Source: a phage | Direction: 5' to 3' (one strand) | Sequence record: PZ452583.1 | DNA: 64,000 bases | Shown here: positions 29,683 to 57,709 of the stretch, piece by piece | How positions within the stretch are numbered: position 1 is the stretch's first letter | How the letters are laid out: the number at the start of each line of letters is the position of its first letter | The notes under the pieces: model-generated | The model's input: the letters and a program-made list of their open reading frames with translations, nothing else | Database searches by the model: none | Told to the model about the DNA's origin: nothing | Made by a program: the position numbers and the translations under genes

Positions 29683-29714
29683 TTTTTGAATAAATATCCT
29701 TAAAAGGAGGGTCT

Positions 29715-30371
29715 ATGGCAGCACCTAGAATATCATTTTCGCCCTCTGATATTCTATTTGGTGTTCTAGATCGCTTGTTCAAAGATAACGCTACCGGGAA
29801 AGTTCTTGCTTCCCGGGTAGCTGTCGTAATTCTTTTATTTATGATGGCGATTGTTTGGTATAGGGGAGATAGTTTCTTTGAGTACTATAAGCAATCAAAG
29901 TATGAAACATACAGTGAAATTATTGAAAAGGAAAGAAATGCACGCTTTGAATCTGTCGCCCTGGAACAACTCCAGATAGTTCATATATCATCTGAGGCAG
30001 ACTTTAGTGCGGTGTATTCTTTCCGCCCTAAAAACTTAAACTATTTTGTTGATATTATAGCATATGAAGGGAAATTACCTTCAACAATAAGTGAAAAATC
30101 ACTTGGAGGATATCCTGTTGATAAAACTATGGATGAATATGCGGTTCATTTAAATGGACGTCATTATTATTCCGATTCAAAATTTGCTTTTTTACCAACT
30201 AAAAAGCCTACTCCCGAAATAAACTACATGTACAGTTGTCCATATTTTAATTTGGATAATATCTATGCTGGAACGATAACCATGTACTGGTATAGAAATG
30301 ATCATATAAGTAATGACCGCCTTGAATCAATATGTGCTCAGGCGGCCAGAATATTAGGAAGGGCTAAATAA
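29715..30371 (+). CDS. t: Holin t
   Basis: 218 aa, equals T4 holin; N-terminal TM; strong SD AAGGAGGG. Confidence 0.93.
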   Translation: MAAPRISFSPSDILFGVLDRLFKDNATGKVLASRVAVVILLFMMAIVWYRGDSFFEYYKQSKYETYSEIIEKERNARFESVALEQLQIVHISSEADFSAVYSFRPKNLNYFVDIIAYEGKLPSTISEKSLGGYPVDKTMDEYAVHLNGRHYYSDSKFAFLPTKKPTPEINYMYSCPYFNLDNIYAGTITMYWYRNDHISNDRLESICAQAARILGRAK

Positions 30372-41041: not shown

Positions 41042-41071
41042 ATTATACCACATCCTTGTGGTAAAGTAAAC
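41042..41071 (-). promoter_or_regulatory. T4-type early promoter (GTTTAC / TATAAT)
   Basis: GTTTAC, 18 nt, TATAAT on minus strand upstream of rIIA.1 and rIIA. Confidence 0.6.
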
Positions 41072-42891
41072 TACTGGCTCATCCATTCTTTACGAAGGTC
41101 AGCATTATCTCCCATGAGCATTTCAAAAAGCTCTTTCCAGTTCTCAGGAAGTTTAACAACATCATATACTGGATTTTGAATCATCTCACGATATTCAGAT
41201 TTTTCCAAAGAGCCAAGTCCCTTAATATAACGGATGCTATGTTTAGATAGAGCATCTTTAGCACTCTCATATTCAGCGACTGTATAAAACCATTCTTGTT
41301 TTTTACCGACCTGGGCGATGATTACAGGAGTTTTGACAAAGCGAATTCGTCCTTGCTCAAACAATTCTGGCCAATTACTAAAAAATCCGAGCAGAGAAGG
41401 ATAAATGCTTCCTAAACCATCATGGTCAGCATCGGTCATAATAGCAATATTATGATAATTCAAGTTTTCAGCTTTTTCACCAAGAACTAATCCAGTGATT
41501 GCGCAAATATCAAATAGTTCTTTGTTTTTAAGCATATCAGCATATGACATACCCCAACTATTGAGAACTTTACCACGCAATGGATAACCACCATGAAGTT
41601 CTTTATCACGAACATCAATAAGATATCCGATAGCAGAATCACCCTCAGTCAAGAAAAGAGTAGTGTCAGCATCTTTACCACAAAGATTCGCTTTGATATG
41701 TTTATGAACCTTAGCTTTAGAAGCCTTTTTAGCTGCTTTAGTTTCTGCTGCTTTTTCTGCCGCCAATTTACGAGCCAACGCAGCTTCAATAATTGGCATT
41801 AAAATTGCTTCATTATTTAAAATAGCACGTGAAATCTTTTTAGCATCAAGTTGAATATGACTACGAATTTCGCCAAATGGAGAAGTCAAACGCTCTTTAG
41901 TTTGAGAATCAAATCGCATGTTTTTCATATCACGAACAAACATAACGATAGTCAAACATTCTTTAACGCGTGCTTTAGTTACATCAATTTTGAATTTACG
42001 TTTGATTTGTGGAATAAGGTCTTCACAAATATCATCCATAACACAATCAATGTGATGACCACCATTCTTAGTGTGAATGTTATTCACATAAGTTAATTGA
42101 CGAAAACCATCCGGTGAACGACCAACCGCAATAGAACAATTTTCTTGTTCTTGAACAATAGCGTGTTCATCATACTGTCGTGCATATTTCTTAAAATTGC
42201 CCTGAACCTTTTTACCATTAAAGGTAAATTGAATATCAGGATAAACAACAGCAAGTGTCTGGAGACGATCTAGTGTAATATCAAGATAAACCTGAGACAG
42301 CTCATTAGTTTCAAATGACATAAAATCAGGAATGAAAGTAACACGAGTTCCTTTCCATTTTCCAGGAATAGTTTCCCAGGATTTATTTTCCATACCATTT
42401 GAACAACGAACTACAATATTATTTTGACCATCGCCAGTTTCACCGACAAACATCACAGAAAAAATGTTAGTTAAACTAGAACCAACACCATTCATACCGC
42501 CGGTGACGCGTTCTTTATCATCACCGAAGTTACCACCTGCTTTTGGAATAGTCCACGCAGCAACAGGACCAGGAATTTCTTCACCAGTAGGTGTTTTAAC
42601 CATCGCCTGTGGAATACCACGACCGTTATCTTCAACTGTTACTTGATTGTTTTTAATAGTAACATTAATTTTATTTGCGAATTTAAACTTAGTACGAATA
42701 CCTTCATCTACTGAGTTATCGATAATTTCATCAATAAGCTTAACAAGACCAGGTACATACTGAACACTTTCCCATTTACCAAACAGAAAGCGCTCATGCA
42801 TTTCATTAGCAGAAGAGCCAATGTACATGCCACTACGCTTTTTGATATGTTCAATATCGCTCAGAATTTTAATTTCATTCTTAATCATCAC
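41071..42891 (-). CDS. 39: gp39 topoisomerase II large subunit (GyrB-like), unsplit
   Basis: 606 aa continuous; in T4 this is split into genes 39 and 60, so a single ORF is the T2/T6/RB-like state. Confidence 0.93.
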   Translation of the reverse strand: MMIKNEIKILSDIEHIKKRSGMYIGSSANEMHERFLFGKWESVQYVPGLVKLIDEIIDNSVDEGIRTKFKFANKINVTIKNNQVTVEDNGRGIPQAMVKTPTGEEIPGPVAAWTIPKAGGNFGDDKERVTGGMNGVGSSLTNIFSVMFVGETGDGQNNIVVRCSNGMENKSWETIPGKWKGTRVTFIPDFMSFETNELSQVYLDITLDRLQTLAVVYPDIQFTFNGKKVQGNFKKYARQYDEHAIVQEQENCSIAVGRSPDGFRQLTYVNNIHTKNGGHHIDCVMDDICEDLIPQIKRKFKIDVTKARVKECLTIVMFVRDMKNMRFDSQTKERLTSPFGEIRSHIQLDAKKISRAILNNEAILMPIIEAALARKLAAEKAAETKAAKKASKAKVHKHIKANLCGKDADTTLFLTEGDSAIGYLIDVRDKELHGGYPLRGKVLNSWGMSYADMLKNKELFDICAITGLVLGEKAENLNYHNIAIMTDADHDGLGSIYPSLLGFFSNWPELFEQGRIRFVKTPVIIAQVGKKQEWFYTVAEYESAKDALSKHSIRYIKGLGSLEKSEYREMIQNPVYDVVKLPENWKELFEMLMGDNADLRKEWMSQ

Positions 42892-42915
42892 TTATCCTCG
42901 TTTGGTTTCGGGAAT

Positions 42916-42943
42916 ATTATACTCCGGTAATCATAAAGCTAAA
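42916..42943 (-). promoter_or_regulatory. Putative MotA-dependent middle promoter for gene 39
   Basis: MotA-box-like TTTAGCTTTA about 12 nt upstream of TATAAT on minus strand. Confidence 0.45.
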
Positions 42944-42957
42944 GGCCCGAAGGCCTT

Positions 42958-43227
42958 TTATTTAAAACGAATAGTTGAATCCTTAAAGAACAGCCCAGAA
43001 CATACTGTTCCTTCTACTTTCTGCCCGGTAGGTCCAATAGCACGAAATCCAGTATGTTGGAAATCATTTTCAGAGCAACCGAACCAGTTATATCCAGTGA
43101 TTTCAATATTCGTAAAACCACTTGATGATAAAATTTTAGTTGCATTATCAGCATCAGTACATCCTACTAAAGATACTGCTAATACTAATGCTGCGATAGA
43201 ACGATTAATATATTTCATAATTTTCAC
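42958..43227 (-). CDS. Putative lipoprotein (89 aa)
   Basis: Signal peptide with LVGC lipobox. Confidence 0.6.
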   Translation of the reverse strand: MKIMKYINRSIAALVLAVSLVGCTDADNATKILSSSGFTNIEITGYNWFGCSENDFQHTGFRAIGPTGQKVEGTVCSGLFFKDSTIRFK

Positions 43228-43601
43228 TTAAATTTAATAGCTTGAAGAAGACTAATAATTCTCAAGCGACTTCTTTCATCTTTAACTGTAAAGGAAAGAG
43301 GGTCGCCAGATTTCATGGTAATAGTGCATTCAAAATCAAAATCTTCTGTGACTTCTTCGAAGAAGTCAAATTCTTCAGCATAAATTAGAACATTACTCTG
43401 CATACTGTGAAGAATTTTTCCGTTATTTCCAGACGCTGTACTAATCATCGTAACATTATGACCTTTCATATCTTCAACGATAAATTCGCTTGTAGATATT
43501 ACAGCATTAATAGAACCATTCCTATAAATAGCAGACATTAGATATTTCTTTTCTTCGCCTTCGCGAATACGATATTTCTTACCGATTTTAAACATAATCA
43601 C
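43224..43601 (-). CDS. Hypothetical protein
   Basis: ORF track 125 aa. Confidence 0.55.
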   Translation of the reverse strand: MIMFKIGKKYRIREGEEKKYLMSAIYRNGSINAVISTSEFIVEDMKGHNVTMISTASGNNGKILHSMQSNVLIYAEEFDFFEEVTEDFDFECTITMKSGDPLSFTVKDERSRLRIISLLQAIKFK

Positions 43602-55053: not shown

Positions 55054-56393
<1,340 letters not shown>

Positions 56394-56418
56394 TATATCA
56401 TCCTCAGCAATTTATTTT

Positions 56419-56448
56419 ATAATACCATAACAAGCTGAGAAAGTAAAC
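56419..56448 (-). promoter_or_regulatory. T4-type early promoter (GTTTAC / TATTAT) for the dam-upstream ORF
   Basis: GTTTAC, 18 nt, TATTAT on minus strand. Confidence 0.6.
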
Positions 56449-56483
56449 AAATTTATGATAAATATTAATTTAAAGGAGGACAT

Positions 56484-56684
56484 ATGGTACAAAAATTAAT
56501 GGCACTTGTTAATGCCATAAAAGGTAATAAGAAACGTATAGCTTTTACTATTTCTGCTATGGTAGGAATTTTACTCTGGAACTTTATTTTATCACCTGTT
56601 GCAATTGCACATGGTATTAATATTCCAGTAGTTACTCTTGATACATTCGTAGATTTAGCATTTGCTTTAGTTGGGTTAATTTAA
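56484..56684 (+). CDS. Small hydrophobic membrane protein (66 aa) on the opposite strand
   Basis: Strong SD AAAGGAGGA 6 nt before ATG; hydrophobic; plus-strand island between minus-strand genes. Confidence 0.55.
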   Translation: MVQKLMALVNAIKGNKKRIAFTISAMVGILLWNFILSPVAIAHGINIPVVTLDTFVDLAFALVGLI

Positions 56685-57709
56685 ATCTTGGCATATTTAG
56701 ATAGCCGCATTTTAGCCATCAACCCCTGTGCAATATTATTTTTCATATATTCCATAATTTGTTCAGGGGTTGCACCTTCCTTTCTAATCATATCATTAAC
56801 ATCTTTTGATTTCCAGGGAGATTTATCCCAAAACATAACCCTTTCTCCTGCATCAACTAATTTAGTCATTCGCTTAATAGTGTCAGGATGACGAGGTTCA
56901 TTATCTAAAACCCACACACGTCTATCTTTAAATGGAACAACTTCTAGGTCTAATTGACCACCCGTAATAGCTATACCATTTTCAATAAAAAGTGAATCTA
57001 TAGGTCCTTCTAGAACATATACATCACCATCTTTAACTCGTTCGACTCCATAGATTTTTGTTGCTTCAGGATAAGCTTTGATGGTGATATATTTTTGGGG
57101 AGCATCTTTCTTTAATGCACGTCCTTGAAAAGACTCAGCTTTTCCATTAGCATTATAAATTGGAATAACAAGACGAGGCTCAGGTATTTCCTTTTTATAT
57201 GTTCCCGGTGCTATGCTATTAACTAATTTAGGCCATTCGGTTGTAAACCAAAGATATTTCCATTTATCCTTTGGAATACAACGAGCTTTTACGTATTTTA
57301 TAATTGGATGGTCTTCCGCCAGTTTATCTAATCTAACACATGACGGAAGAGATTTAATTATTTTCTTTTCAGGTTGTTTAGGAAGTTCTTTAGGTTTTTC
57401 TACTGGACGACTTTTACCTTTTTCTTTTCTTATTTCAAAGATATACTCACGATATAAATCAGGTTCAAACTCCTTTAAATATATTCCGATTGGCGCATGA
57501 TAGTTACAGTTATAACAATGAATATTTCCTTCATTATTATCACCATAATACCATCCACGAGCTTTATTCTGGTCGGTTTTTGAATCTCCGCAAACAGGGC
57601 ATCTAAACCGTAATTTAAAAGTTGAACTATTATTTACTTGTGTGAATTTAGGTAAATGGGCTAATGCACGATACGCAAACTCATTATCAATCCAAGGTAT
57701 TGATGACAT
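56681..57709 (-). CDS. 61: gp61 DNA primase
   Basis: 342 aa, equals T4 gp61; N-terminal zinc ribbon CPVCGD...CYNC; TOPRIM region. Confidence 0.93.
   Translation of the reverse strand: MSSIPWIDNEFAYRALAHLPKFTQVNNSSTFKLRFRCPVCGDSKTDQNKARGWYYGDNNEGNIHCYNCNYHAPIGIYLKEFEPDLYREYIFEIRKEKGKSRPVEKPKELPKQPEKKIIKSLPSCVRLDKLAEDHPIIKYVKARCIPKDKWKYLWFTTEWPKLVNSIAPGTYKKEIPEPRLVIPIYNANGKAESFQGRALKKDAPQKYITIKAYPEATKIYGVERVKDGDVYVLEGPIDSLFIENGIAITGGQLDLEVVPFKDRRVWVLDNEPRHPDTIKRMTKLVDAGERVMFWDKSPWKSKDVNDMIRKEGATPEQIMEYMKNNIAQGLMAKMRLSKYAKI

What the first reader, a model, noticed from the sequence alone, without database searches (positions are those of the whole stretch)
56484..56684. Antisense-oriented small membrane protein inside a minus-strand early block
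This 66-aa hydrophobic ORF has one of the strongest SDs in the window (AAAGGAGGA) and is the only plus-strand gene between t and the window end. Its upstream region overlaps the early promoter of the dam-upstream ORF, and its 3' end converges on gene 61. This geometry suits an antisense or late-expressed membrane toxin, exclusion factor or holin-like peptide.
Basis: partly seen in the sequence, partly recalled or inferred. Interest (0 to 1): 0.5.

Follow-up and report, generated by a model that had tools for sequence, protein, structure and literature searches.

The report
Conserved late T-even small membrane gene
The 66-codon ORF is a real, conserved T-even phage gene (dam.1 in phage T4T, missing from the T4 reference annotation) that encodes a small membrane protein, probably made late in infection and distantly resembling part of a known holin family; its function is untested.

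Summary
The ORF at 56484..56684(+) is real. The window is a T2-like Tequatrovirus. The ORF is 'dam.1' of T4T, 'RB69ORF029w-like' in T2, and PHROG family phrog_2024 (unknown function). It is intact but unannotated in the T4 reference. It occurs in 693 phage records, nearly always tail-to-tail with primase gene 61. Between genera it evolves as a protein: pN 0.31-0.39 against saturated pS 0.57-0.75.

In every T4-like lineage examined, ATAAATA lies upstream of a strong Shine-Dalgarno. This is the T4 late-promoter core, always with a non-T first base, and the motif is depleted elsewhere in the window. T2/T4 homology starts at this motif. AAGGAGG occurs only twice in 64 kb, before holin gene t and before this ORF.

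The protein has a basic N-terminus, one clear transmembrane helix and a hydrophobic C-terminal helix. Its conserved core is WNFxxxPxAxxxGxxxPxxxL(D/E). This core shows moderate profile similarity to the last membrane segments of PF11351/phrog_3427 '3TM' holins, but it fails that family's membership criteria.

Best reading: a late-expressed inner-membrane accessory protein, possibly lysis-related. The antisense-regulator, toxin and exclusion readings are not supported. It is catalogued but uncharacterised, and of moderate interest.

The parts
56457..56464 (+). GATAAATA: a putative gp55-type late promoter, matching the T4 consensus TATAAATA at 7 of 8 positions with a non-T first base. The predicted RNA start is near 56470.
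   Evidence: ATAAATA was found 11-19 nt upstream of the ATG in all 11 T4-like loci examined, preceded by G, A or C and never T. The motif is depleted in the window: 16 copies against 37 +/- 6 expected. T2/T4 sequence homology begins at this motif. The in-window parallel is AATAAATA before holin gene t. Variant late promoters are documented in PMC2988020. No RNA 5' end has been mapped, so the promoter is inferred.
56472..56480 (+). Shine-Dalgarno sequence AAAGGAGGA, 4 nt before the ATG.
   Evidence: AAGGAGG occurs only twice in the window, here and upstream of gene t. A comparable SD (AAGGAGG, AAGGAG, AGGAGG or GGAGG) is present in all T4-like relatives examined.
56484..56684 (+). Coding sequence of a 66-aa small membrane protein (T4T dam.1, phrog_2024).
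   Evidence: phrog_2024, E 1.4e-31. Annotated as dam.1 in T4T and as 'similar to RB69ORF029w; RB32030w' in T2. Found in 693 phage records. Between genera, pN is 0.31-0.39 and pS is 0.57-0.75, giving dN/dS of about 0.1-0.5.
56538..56609 (+). Codons 19-42, the transmembrane helix IAFTISAMVGILLWNFILSPVAIA. It is preceded by a basic cluster (K13, K16, K17, R18).
   Evidence: Kyte-Doolittle mean 2.01. The AlphaFold2 model has a helix at residues 16-42, mean pLDDT 77.6. The N-terminal tail carries 4-8 K/R and the C-terminal tail 0-2 K/R in most members, which by the positive-inside rule places the N-terminus in the cytoplasm.
56577..56642 (+). Codons 32-53, the conserved family core WNFxxxPxAxxxGxxxPxxxL(D/E).
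   Evidence: P38 is invariant, and W32, N33, G44 and P48 are at least 90% conserved in 25 diverse members. This is the segment that aligns with PF11351 holins.
56489..56518 (-). Terminator-like hairpin ATGGCATTAACAAGTGCCAT followed by TAATTTTTGT on the minus strand. It lies about 160 nt downstream of the gene 61 stop and is embedded in codons 2-12 of the plus-strand ORF.
   Evidence: A terminator is annotated at the same place in Yersinia phage fPS-90. The hairpin is present in Tequatrovirus only, not in Mosigvirus, Gaprivervirus or the more distant lineages.
56419..56447 (-). Sigma-70-like (early-type) promoter TTTACT-17-TATTAT with an upstream TG. It points away from the ORF towards the 186-aa ORF and dam.
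   Evidence: It scores 9 of 12, and promoter-like sites in this region are no more frequent than in shuffled sequence, so the assignment rests on its position upstream of 55833..56393.
56681..57709 (-). Gene 61 (DNA primase), the convergent neighbour; the two stop codons overlap by 4 nt.
   Evidence: phrog_47 DNA primase, E 7.9e-107. The same tail-to-tail arrangement is seen in T2, T4, fPS-90, Mosigvirus MM02 and the distant T4-like loci L011, L012 and L029.

Best explanation
This is a genuine protein-coding gene of T-even phages, the orthologue of T4T dam.1 and a member of phrog_2024.

It is most likely transcribed only late in infection. The promoter would be a gp55-type late promoter, GATAAATA, a non-consensus variant conserved in every T4-like lineage examined. 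Translation would start from one of the two strongest ribosome-binding sites in the window.

The product is a 66-residue inner-membrane protein. It has a basic cytoplasmic N-terminus, one transmembrane helix, and a hydrophobic, acidic C-terminal helix. That C-terminal helix either lies at the periplasmic face or folds back into the membrane as a hairpin.

The conserved core WNFxxxPxAxxxGxxxPxxxL(D/E) resembles the last membrane segments of PF11351/phrog_3427 '3TM' holins. I therefore infer that the protein acts in the cytoplasmic membrane at the time of lysis, as an accessory factor that modulates membrane integrity or holin triggering. It would not be the main holin, because T4 t mutants do not lyse (established knowledge, not tested here).

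The 'antisense' geometry is a by-product of a late plus-strand gene sitting tail-to-tail behind primase gene 61.

Shown here: the gene is real, it is conserved, it evolves as a protein, it has membrane character, and the promoter-like motif is conserved. Inferred: late transcription, topology, and any lysis-related role.
For: Identity and distribution:
- phrog_2024, E 1.4e-31; all 25 diverse relatives hit the same family.
- Annotated as dam.1 in T4T and as a hypothetical protein in T2, SV76, MM02 and others.
- Intact but unannotated in T4 NC_000866.4.
- tblastn finds 693 phage records, 503 of them at 90% identity or more and 190 below 60%.
- Position next to primase is kept in Tequatrovirus, Mosigvirus, Gaprivervirus and the more distant T4-like loci L011, L012 and L029, while the other neighbour varies (dam, the 186-aa ORF, gene 56, or a homing endonuclease).

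Coding:
- Between genera pS is 0.57-0.75 against pN 0.31-0.39.
- There is no competing ORF on either strand and no Rfam match.

Late expression:
- ATAAATA lies 11-19 nt upstream of the ATG in all 11 T4-like loci, although the surrounding sequence is not conserved.
- The motif is depleted in the window, 16 copies against 37 +/- 6 expected.
- T2/T4 homology starts at this motif.
- Gene t (PDB 6pxe, E 5e-107) has the same layout, AATAAATA-N7-AAGGAGG, and AAGGAGG occurs only at these two genes.
- PMC2988020: 32 of 50 T4 late-promoter sites are perfect, 9 have A at -13 and others have single deviations; early and middle transcripts all share one polarity, while late transcripts have either.

Membrane character:
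- Kyte-Doolittle profile and charge asymmetry.
- AlphaFold2 helices at residues 2-12, 16-42 and 52-63, mean pLDDT 77.6.

Holin link:
- Seven family members give sub-threshold PF11351 hits at the same part of the profile, best E 0.007.
- phrog_3427 'holin' is hit at E 5e-4 and 2e-3.
- hhalign of the family against 27 PF11351 holins, seeded by the Paracoccus phage ParKuw1 holin (PF11351 E 6.8e-20, next to an endolysin), gives probability 68%, P 4.7e-5, over 51 columns. The T4-like members alone give 26%, P 7e-4.
- Controls: the reversed profile scores 8-9. Whole-alignment column shuffles average 9 and peak at 15.6, against observed scores of 32.4 and 25.3. Shuffles confined to the aligned block peak at 16.9, against observed 25.9 and 19.6.
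Against: - No transcript or protein data exist for this ORF. The one T4 omics study I read counted only NC_000866.4 features, so the ORF was not measured.
- The promoter is a 7-of-8 variant. How active G or C at -13 is in vivo is unknown; PMC2988020 states that the relative strengths of variant promoters have not been determined.
- The window protein itself has no Pfam hit even at E 1.
- The hhalign probability for the T4-like members alone is only 26%. Membrane segments are prone to spurious profile matches.
- The protein lacks the N-terminal region, the full last transmembrane segment and the basic C-terminal tail of PF11351 holins.
- It is not next to an endolysin gene in T-even phages.
- In prophages, the family member is the last gene of a late-strand block that begins after the tail-tip gene and also holds a DUF2730 protein and, on the opposite strand, a lysozyme gene about 1.4 kb upstream. 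The same block holds tail-like and homing-endonuclease genes, so this context is ambiguous.
- T4 already has a complete, well-studied lysis system, and no phenotype maps to this interval (own knowledge).
Confidence: 0.6

Rival explanations
1. It is a real late membrane protein whose role has nothing to do with lysis. Examples would be a membrane-anchored helper of head or DNA-packaging assembly, an inhibitor of a membrane-bound host defence or protease, or protection of the infected cell envelope. On this reading the similarity to holins is convergent: a hydrophobic helix followed by a Pro/Gly turn.
For: The holin similarity is below family thresholds and is weak for the T4-like members alone. 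The most conserved residues lie at the predicted periplasmic end of the helix and the following loop, which fits a specific protein-protein contact. In temperate phages the family travels with two soluble basic proteins of about 185 and 104 aa, one of which weakly matches a 'minor tail protein' PHROG, and it sits after the tail-tip gene. One form lies directly upstream of a RelA_SpoT-domain gene.
Against: No partner or target can be named, and no similarity to any other characterised family was found. Shuffles confined to the aligned holin block never reach the observed score, so the match depends on residue order and not only on composition.
Confidence: 0.25
2. The unit matters mainly as an antisense or convergent-transcription device. 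Late plus-strand transcription from the GATAAATA motif would run into gene 61 and help shut off primase synthesis late. Alternatively, read-through gene 61 RNA would silence a toxic peptide, as in a type I toxin-antitoxin pair.
For: The two genes overlap tail to tail with no room for a terminator between them. No plus-strand terminator-like site was found downstream of the ORF up to 57900. In Tequatrovirus the gene 61 transcript must cross at least 160 nt of the ORF before reaching the terminator-like hairpin. [quoted passage not shown]
Against: Selection acts on the amino-acid sequence, and the family also occurs in same-strand operons in other phages where no antisense partner exists. Minus-strand promoter-like sites inside the ORF are at chance level. 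The hairpin is genus-specific. In L012 the genes do not overlap, in DK-13 a homing endonuclease separates the ORF from primase, and in UPEC01 a second paralogue does. The single Ldr_toxin hit (1 of 25 members, E 0.1) is noise.
Confidence: 0.08
3. It is a superinfection-exclusion or immunity factor in the inner membrane that blocks DNA entry of secondary phages, working like T4 Imm.
For: It is a small inner-membrane protein. In temperate phages the family lies distal to the tail-tip gene, a region that often carries exclusion genes (own knowledge), and a lipoprotein-like ORF lies nearby in L096.
Against: It is on the plus strand with a late-type promoter, whereas the T4 exclusion functions Imm and Sp act within minutes (own knowledge). 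In the prophages it lies on the late strand with no evident promoter of its own. No sequence similarity to an exclusion family was found.
Confidence: 0.07

Closest known systems
T4T gene dam.1, also labelled RB69ORF029w / RB32ORF030w, PHROG family phrog_2024 (all 'hypothetical protein', unknown function)
   Same: It is the same gene. The window protein is 98.5% identical to T4T Dam.1, occupies the same position and orientation, and matches phrog_2024 over its full length at E 1.4e-31.
   Different: Nothing differs apart from the upstream neighbour: here it is the T2-type 186-aa ORF, whereas in T4 it is dam itself. The gene is absent from the annotation of the T4 reference NC_000866.4 and of T2 record LC348380.
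PF11351 GTA_holin_3TM / phrog_3427 holins (for example the Paracoccus phage ParKuw1 holin; the family is named after the Rhodobacter capsulatus gene-transfer-agent holin)
   Same: They share an ordered motif across a transmembrane helix, a turn and the start of the next helix: (W/Y)x(F/Y)xxxP...LPxxx(L)(D/E)...LxG. hhalign aligns 44-51 columns. The 94-97-aa bacterial and prophage members of the family also share the preceding WRxxxGW motif. Both groups are phage membrane proteins.
   Different: The window protein is less than half the length. It lacks the N-terminal amphipathic/acidic region, the complete last transmembrane segment and the basic C-terminal tail. It scores below the Pfam threshold or gives no hit at all, and it is not adjacent to an endolysin. 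No lysis function has been shown.
T4 holin T (gene t)
   Same: In this window both have a non-T(-13) late-promoter variant followed by AAGGAGG, and these are the only two AAGGAGG sites in 64 kb. Both are N-in membrane proteins with a single clear transmembrane helix.
   Different: There is no sequence similarity. T is 218 aa with a large periplasmic domain (PDB 6pxe), whereas the 66-aa protein has almost no extramembrane mass.
Type I toxin peptides (Hok, Ldr, TisB and others)
   Same: They are small hydrophobic peptides, and here the ORF is overlapped by RNA from the opposite strand.
   Different: There is no dedicated antisense RNA gene. The family is also found in plain operons in other phages, and there is no significant similarity (Ldr_toxin E 0.1 in 1 of 25 members). 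The conserved polar, Pro and Gly motif is unlike simple pore-forming toxins.

Membership tests
phrog_2024 / T-even dam.1 family | Full-length profile match | tested here: met
   E 1.4e-31, residues 2-66 against profile positions 1-65 of 65. All 25 diverse relatives match the same family.
phrog_2024 / T-even dam.1 family | Conserved position: plus strand, tail-to-tail with primase gene 61 | tested here: met
T4 late gene (gp55/gp33/gp45-dependent) | TATAAATA element about 6-7 nt upstream of the RNA start, with no -35 element needed | tested here: inconclusive
   GATAAATA at 56457-56464 matches 7 of 8 positions. The ATAAATA core is conserved in all 11 T4-like loci. Variants at -13 are documented among the 50 listed T4 late-promoter sites (PMC2988020), but the activity of G or C at -13 is unknown.
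T4 late gene (gp55/gp33/gp45-dependent) | Polarity compatible with late transcription only | tested here: met
   The ORF is on the strand opposite to the early block. All T4 early and middle transcripts share one polarity (PMC2988020).
T4 late gene (gp55/gp33/gp45-dependent) | Late, replication-coupled, gp55-dependent RNA 5' end | not testable with these tools
   This needs 5' mapping or strand-specific RNA-seq. The published T4 omics study I read counted only annotated features.
PF11351 GTA_holin_3TM / phrog_3427 holin | Score above the Pfam gathering threshold (24.8 bits) | tested here: not met
   The window protein has no hit at E up to 1. The best relative scores 17.3 bits, E 0.007. Three of 25 members hit at E 0.03-0.1.
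PF11351 GTA_holin_3TM / phrog_3427 holin | Profile-profile similarity of the membrane core | tested here: inconclusive
   hhalign gives probability 68%, P 4.7e-5 for the whole family and 26%, P 7e-4 for the T4-like members alone. These scores exceed the reversed and shuffled controls.
PF11351 GTA_holin_3TM / phrog_3427 holin | About three membrane segments, an N-terminal amphipathic/acidic region and a basic C-terminal tail | tested here: not met
   There is one clear transmembrane helix plus one marginal hydrophobic helix. The protein ends at ...ALVGLI with no basic tail. Compare the holin sequences.
PF11351 GTA_holin_3TM / phrog_3427 holin | Gene adjacent to an endolysin gene | tested here: not met
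   The neighbours here are primase and the 186-aa ORF/dam. In the prophages a lysozyme gene lies about 1.4 kb away on the other strand.
PF11351 GTA_holin_3TM / phrog_3427 holin | Holin activity (endolysin release or membrane permeabilisation) | not testable with these tools
   This needs complementation of a holin-defective phage or induced-expression assays.
Class II holin / pinholin | Two transmembrane domains with N-in/C-in topology, a charged C-terminal tail, and often a dual-start motif | tested here: not met
   The second hydrophobic segment, residues 48-66, is marginal (Kyte-Doolittle 1.86, with two Asp). There is no charged C-terminal tail. The M1...K4...M6 pattern occurs only in Tequatrovirus and is not conserved in Mosigvirus or Gaprivervirus.
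Type I toxin-antitoxin | A dedicated antisense RNA gene with its own promoter overlapping the toxin mRNA | tested here: not met
   Minus-strand promoter-like sites in the ORF are at chance frequency. There is no Rfam family match. Family members occur in same-strand operons in other phages.
Superinfection exclusion proteins (Imm, Sp, Cor, Llp types) | Early or lysogenic expression, or a lipoprotein/signal peptide, or sequence similarity to such a family | tested here: not met
   The orientation and promoter are late-type. There is no lipobox or cleavable signal peptide in the sequence. No family hits were found.

The most novel reading that the evidence does not exclude
T-even phages carry an overlooked, universally conserved late gene derived from the membrane core of a PF11351-type holin. 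Its product would tune lysis by interacting in the membrane with holin T or by priming membrane depolarisation. Expression would be kept low by an always non-consensus late promoter, paired with the same very strong ribosome-binding site as gene t. That would add a new player to the T4 lysis and lysis-inhibition system, which is regarded as fully catalogued.
Probability: 0.2. Interest if true: 0.65.

Novelty: new variant of a known kind. Interest (0 to 1): 0.4.

Why it matters
T4 is a reference organism for phage biology, yet this gene is missing from its reference annotation. Transcriptome and proteome studies that count annotated features therefore cannot see it.

The gene is retained in every Tequatrovirus, Mosigvirus and Gaprivervirus record that matched, and in more distant T4-like phages, which argues for a function under selection. 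If the holin relationship is real, it would show two things. First, a holin core can be cut down to about 60 residues and kept alongside an unrelated main holin. Second, it would give a concrete new candidate for unexplained aspects of lysis timing and lysis inhibition in T-even phages.

If the holin link is not real, this remains a compact, conserved, late-expressed membrane-protein family of unknown role that is easy to test genetically.

Tried and rejected
- Pfam, NCBIfam and PDB sequence searches on the window protein or the family profile gave nothing significant.
- Foldseek of the AlphaFold2 model against BFVD returned only family members; one of them is labelled 'Holin' in UniProt with no evidence shown. 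Foldseek against the PDB returned nothing. The afdb50 library was unavailable.
- Literature searches for 'dam.1', 'RB69ORF029w', T4 antisense or unannotated small ORFs, and ribosome profiling found no paper on this gene. The Miller 2003 T4 genome review is not held, and a search of the gp55 structure paper for promoter contacts found nothing.
- The search for related loci with the mixed-family alignment failed because no stretch was conserved enough. With subtype A only it returned just 11 loci.
- The minus-strand terminator hairpin inside the ORF was considered as the real reason for conservation. I rejected this because the hairpin is restricted to Tequatrovirus while the protein is conserved far beyond that genus.
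- A holin/antiholin dual-start motif (M1...K4...M6) was considered and rejected as not conserved.
- The type I toxin reading was rejected (see the rival explanations).
- A single-sequence AlphaFold2 model of the neighbouring 186-aa ORF was too poor to use, pLDDT 43.
- Gene neighbourhoods of distant family members were examined to pin down function, but they were ambiguous between lysis and tail or 'moron' regions.
Full report
1. WHAT IS THERE

The window is a T2-like Tequatrovirus. The region 55800-57000 is 98-99% identical to Serratia phage PhiZZ30, Escherichia phage vB_EcoM_112 and T2.

The ORF 56484..56684(+) encodes 66 aa. AAAGGAGGA lies at 56472-56480, 4 nt before the ATG.

Surrounding features on the minus strand:
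- Primase gene 61 (56681..57709; phrog_47, E 7.9e-107). Its stop codon overlaps the ORF's stop by 4 nt.
- A 186-aa ORF (55833..56393; phrog_8706).
- dam (55054..55833).

From the end of holin gene t (29715..30371; PDB 6pxe, E 5e-107) to the window end, minus-strand ORFs tile the sequence. This is the only plus-strand ORF that sits in a gap of that tiling.

Its 'strongest SD' remark is also correct: AAGGAGG occurs only twice in 64 kb, before t and before this ORF.

2. IT IS A KNOWN BUT UNCHARACTERISED GENE

- The ORF is annotated 'dam.1' in T4T (HM137666).
- It is annotated 'similar to RB69ORF029w; RB32030w' in T2 record MH751506.
- It is 'hypothetical protein' in hundreds of other records.
- It belongs to PHROG family phrog_2024, function unknown.
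- It is not annotated in the T4 reference NC_000866.4, which shows a 310-nt gap between dam and gene 61, although the reading frame there is intact.
- It is also not annotated in T2 record LC348380.
- I found no paper that mentions it.
- The time-resolved T4 transcriptome/proteome study counted only NC_000866.4 features, so it could not have detected this gene (PMC9697503).

3. IT CODES FOR A PROTEIN

tblastn finds the ORF in 693 phage records. Of these, 503 are at 90% identity or more (Tequatrovirus) and 190 are at 44-57% (Mosigvirus and Gaprivervirus).

Between genera, synonymous sites are near saturation (pS 0.57-0.75) while pN is 0.31-0.39, giving dN/dS of roughly 0.1-0.5. Within genera most comparisons give dN/dS of 0.07-0.43; one Gaprivervirus pair reaches 0.73 on very few substitutions.

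No alternative ORF of at least 30 aa lies within the ORF's span on either strand, and no Rfam family matches.

An exhaustive HMMER scan of 1.84 billion representative proteins found only 17 clusters, all 33-70 aa long. Word-seeded profile searches added two further groups:
- A second T4-like subtype, B, beginning MGTLFYQIWKL..., found in Klebsiella phages and in Gaprivervirus.
- 70-aa and 94-97-aa forms in enterobacterial prophages.

Across 25 diverse members, P38 is invariant and W32, N33, G44 and P48 are at least 90% conserved. The core motif is WN(F/Y/L)xxxPxAxxxGxxLPxxx(L/I)(D/E)...G.

4. SYNTENY

In T2, T4, fPS-90, Mosigvirus MM02 and the distant T4-like contigs L011, L012, L018 and L029, the gene lies tail-to-tail with the primase gene (in the 745-base contig L018 the convergent ORF could not be identified). 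The gene on the other side varies: dam, the 186-aa ORF, gene 56, or a homing endonuclease.

In Gaprivervirus UPEC01, an A copy and a B copy lie in tandem. The B copy is broken in TH40, and in DK-13 a homing endonuclease separates the A copy from primase.

The T2/T4 sequence homology on the upstream side begins at GATAAATA. The conserved unit is therefore motif + Shine-Dalgarno + ORF.

5. EXPRESSION SIGNALS

In all 11 T4-like loci examined, ATAAATA lies 11-19 nt upstream of the ATG and is followed by a Shine-Dalgarno sequence. The flanking sequence is otherwise not conserved. The base before the motif is G, A or C, and never T. Family members outside the T4-like phages lack the motif.

ATAAATA is strongly depleted in the window: 16 copies against 37 +/- 6 in shuffles. 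This is what one expects if the motif acts as a promoter wherever it occurs.

The T4 late promoter is TATAAATA at about -10. Of the 50 listed sites, 32 are perfect, 9 have A at -13, and most of the others have a single deviation. Early and middle transcripts all have one polarity, while late transcripts have either (PMC2988020).

Gene t in this window shows the same layout, AATAAATA-N7-AAGGAGG-N4-ATG.

I therefore infer a late promoter with an RNA start near 56470. This is an inference; no RNA end has been mapped. The consistent absence of T at -13 may mean that low expression is selected, which is speculative.

On the minus strand there are two relevant sites:
- A sigma-70-like promoter at 56447..56419, pointing towards the 186-aa ORF and dam.
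- A terminator-like hairpin at 56518..56499 followed by a T-run, about 160 nt after the gene 61 stop and inside codons 2-12 of the ORF.

The hairpin is restricted to Tequatrovirus, so it cannot explain conservation of the ORF across genera.

No plus-strand terminator-like site follows the ORF up to 57900. A late transcript would therefore run antisense into gene 61 for an unknown distance.

6. THE PROTEIN

- The N-terminal 18 residues carry five K/R and no acidic residues.
- Residues 19-42 form a clear transmembrane helix (Kyte-Doolittle mean 2.01).
- Residues 48-66 are hydrophobic (1.86) but contain D53 and D57.
- The C-terminal tail has 0-2 K/R in every family member.
- AlphaFold2 with a 19-sequence alignment gives helices at 2-12, 16-42 and 52-63, mean pLDDT 77.6.

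The positive-inside rule puts the N-terminus in the cytoplasm. The C-terminal helix is either periplasmic and surface-bound, or folds back to form a hairpin.

7. WHAT IT RESEMBLES

The window protein itself has no Pfam, NCBIfam, PDB or structural match.

Several relatives, however, give repeated sub-threshold hits to one family:
- PF11351 GTA_holin_3TM is hit by 7 members, all at profile positions about 46-117, with best E 0.007.
- It is the only Pfam family hit by more than one of 25 members.
- The PHROG 'holin' family phrog_3427 is hit at E 5e-4 and 2e-3.

To test this properly, I collected 27 distinct PF11351-type holins. They were seeded by the Paracoccus phage ParKuw1 holin, which matches PF11351 at E 6.8e-20 and lies next to an endolysin gene.

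hhalign of the dam.1 family against these holins gave:
- Whole family: probability 68%, P 4.7e-5, 51 aligned columns.
- T4-like members alone: probability 26%, P 7e-4.

Controls:
- The reversed holin profile scores 8-9.
- 150 shuffles of all alignment columns give mean 9 and maximum 15.6, against observed scores of 32.4 and 25.3.
- 150 shuffles confined to the aligned block give maximum 16.9, against observed 25.9 and 19.6.

The similarity therefore depends on residue order and is reproducible, but it remains moderate.

The aligned part covers the transmembrane helix, the turn and the start of the holin's last membrane segment. The T-even protein stops there. It lacks the holin's N-terminal region and its basic C-terminal tail. 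It is not a member of PF11351 by the family's own criteria. At most it is a cut-down relative.

Gene neighbourhoods of non-T4 members are ambiguous. The member is the last gene on the late strand of several prophages. It follows the tail-tip gene, a DUF2730 protein (transmembrane helix plus coiled coil), a divergently oriented lysozyme gene, a GIY-YIG or EndoVII-type endonuclease gene, and two basic proteins of about 185 and 104 aa. In some cases it lies directly upstream of a RelA_SpoT-domain gene.

8. MECHANISM

The best-supported account is a late-expressed small inner-membrane protein. I rate the statement that it is a real, translated late membrane-protein gene at about 0.85.

That it acts in lysis as an accessory, holin-related factor is an inference from three observations: the PF11351/phrog_3427 similarity, the late timing, and the expression signals shared with gene t. 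I rate this at about 0.3. It cannot be the main holin, because T4 t mutants fail to lyse (established knowledge, not tested here).

The overall confidence given for the combined statement is 0.6.

Rival readings are set out with their tests in the rival-explanations section. They are a lysis-unrelated membrane role, an antisense or toxin-antitoxin device, and superinfection exclusion.

9. NOVELTY AND VERDICT

The ORF is already catalogued, so its existence is not new. What this analysis adds:
- A variant late-promoter motif conserved in every T4-like lineage examined.
- The pairing of that motif with the t-type ribosome-binding site.
- The family's reach into prophages.
- The moderate evidence for descent from a holin membrane core.

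This makes it a variant of a known kind (a phage holin-like small membrane protein) rather than something categorically new. Interest is moderate, mainly because the gene is missing from the T4 reference annotation and is straightforward to test.

Noticed in passing
window 55833..56393 (-): A 186-aa ORF lies directly upstream of dam, and its stop overlaps the dam start. It is present in T2-type phages but absent from T4. It belongs to phrog_8706 (unknown function). It gives weak sub-threshold Pfam hits to the DpnII restriction endonuclease (E 0.0099), BanI and HSDR_N, and carries a PD-(D/E)XK-like FDIVIS...IIEIKHQ motif. DpnII cuts GATC, which is the Dam methylation site, so this could be a remnant or relative of a restriction partner of dam. 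It occurs in 164 phage records, including Klebsiella phages at 42% identity. It has no PDB sequence hit, and the single-sequence AlphaFold2 model was unusable at pLDDT 43.
   Followed up: partly
window 29689-29714 and 56457-56483 (+): AAGGAGG occurs only twice in the 64-kb window on both strands: upstream of holin gene t and upstream of the 66-aa ORF. Both sites also have a late-promoter variant with a non-T first base, AATAAATA and GATAAATA respectively.
   Followed up: partly
whole window, both strands: The heptamer ATAAATA is strongly depleted: 16 copies against 37 +/- 6 in dinucleotide-preserving shuffles. This is consistent with selection against stray late promoters. Several copies lie inside ORFs with no downstream gene start.
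   Followed up: no
L010 1995-2192 and 2201-2401 (Gaprivervirus UPEC01); L009 (TH40); L008 (DK-13): Gaprivervirus carries two paralogues of the family in tandem, subtype A followed by subtype B, before primase. The B copy is frame-broken in TH40. In DK-13 it has lost its start, and a homing endonuclease gene lies between the A copy and primase.
   Followed up: partly
L015 129-1383; L095 681-2049; L093 6001-6811: A 96-97-aa form of the family lies directly upstream of a RelA_SpoT-domain ORF (166-352 aa) in Raoultella and other enterobacterial sequences, in one case next to transposase genes. This may be a two-gene cargo or defence-like module.
   Followed up: no
L092 (E. coli NZ_LR882990.1, prophage at yegD); L096/L097; L014; L017: Enterobacterial prophages and related phages carry family members at the end of the late strand. 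The gene set recurs: tail tip, a DUF2730-like protein (transmembrane helix plus coiled coil), a lysozyme gene on the opposite strand, a GIY-YIG or EndoVII-type endonuclease, and two basic proteins of about 185 and 104 aa whose order relative to the member differs between phages. The yegD prophage is in only 25 of 5426 complete E. coli genomes.
   Followed up: partly
window 56489-56518 (-): The terminator-like hairpin for gene 61 transcripts is encoded within codons 2-12 of the plus-strand ORF. It is specific to Tequatrovirus; other genera show no equivalent hairpin at that place.
   Followed up: yes
window 42821..43231 (+): A 136-aa plus-strand ORF overlaps minus-strand ORFs just beyond the 606-aa minus-strand ORF (41071..42891), which I take from memory to be gene 39. 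It is probably spurious but was not examined.
   Followed up: no
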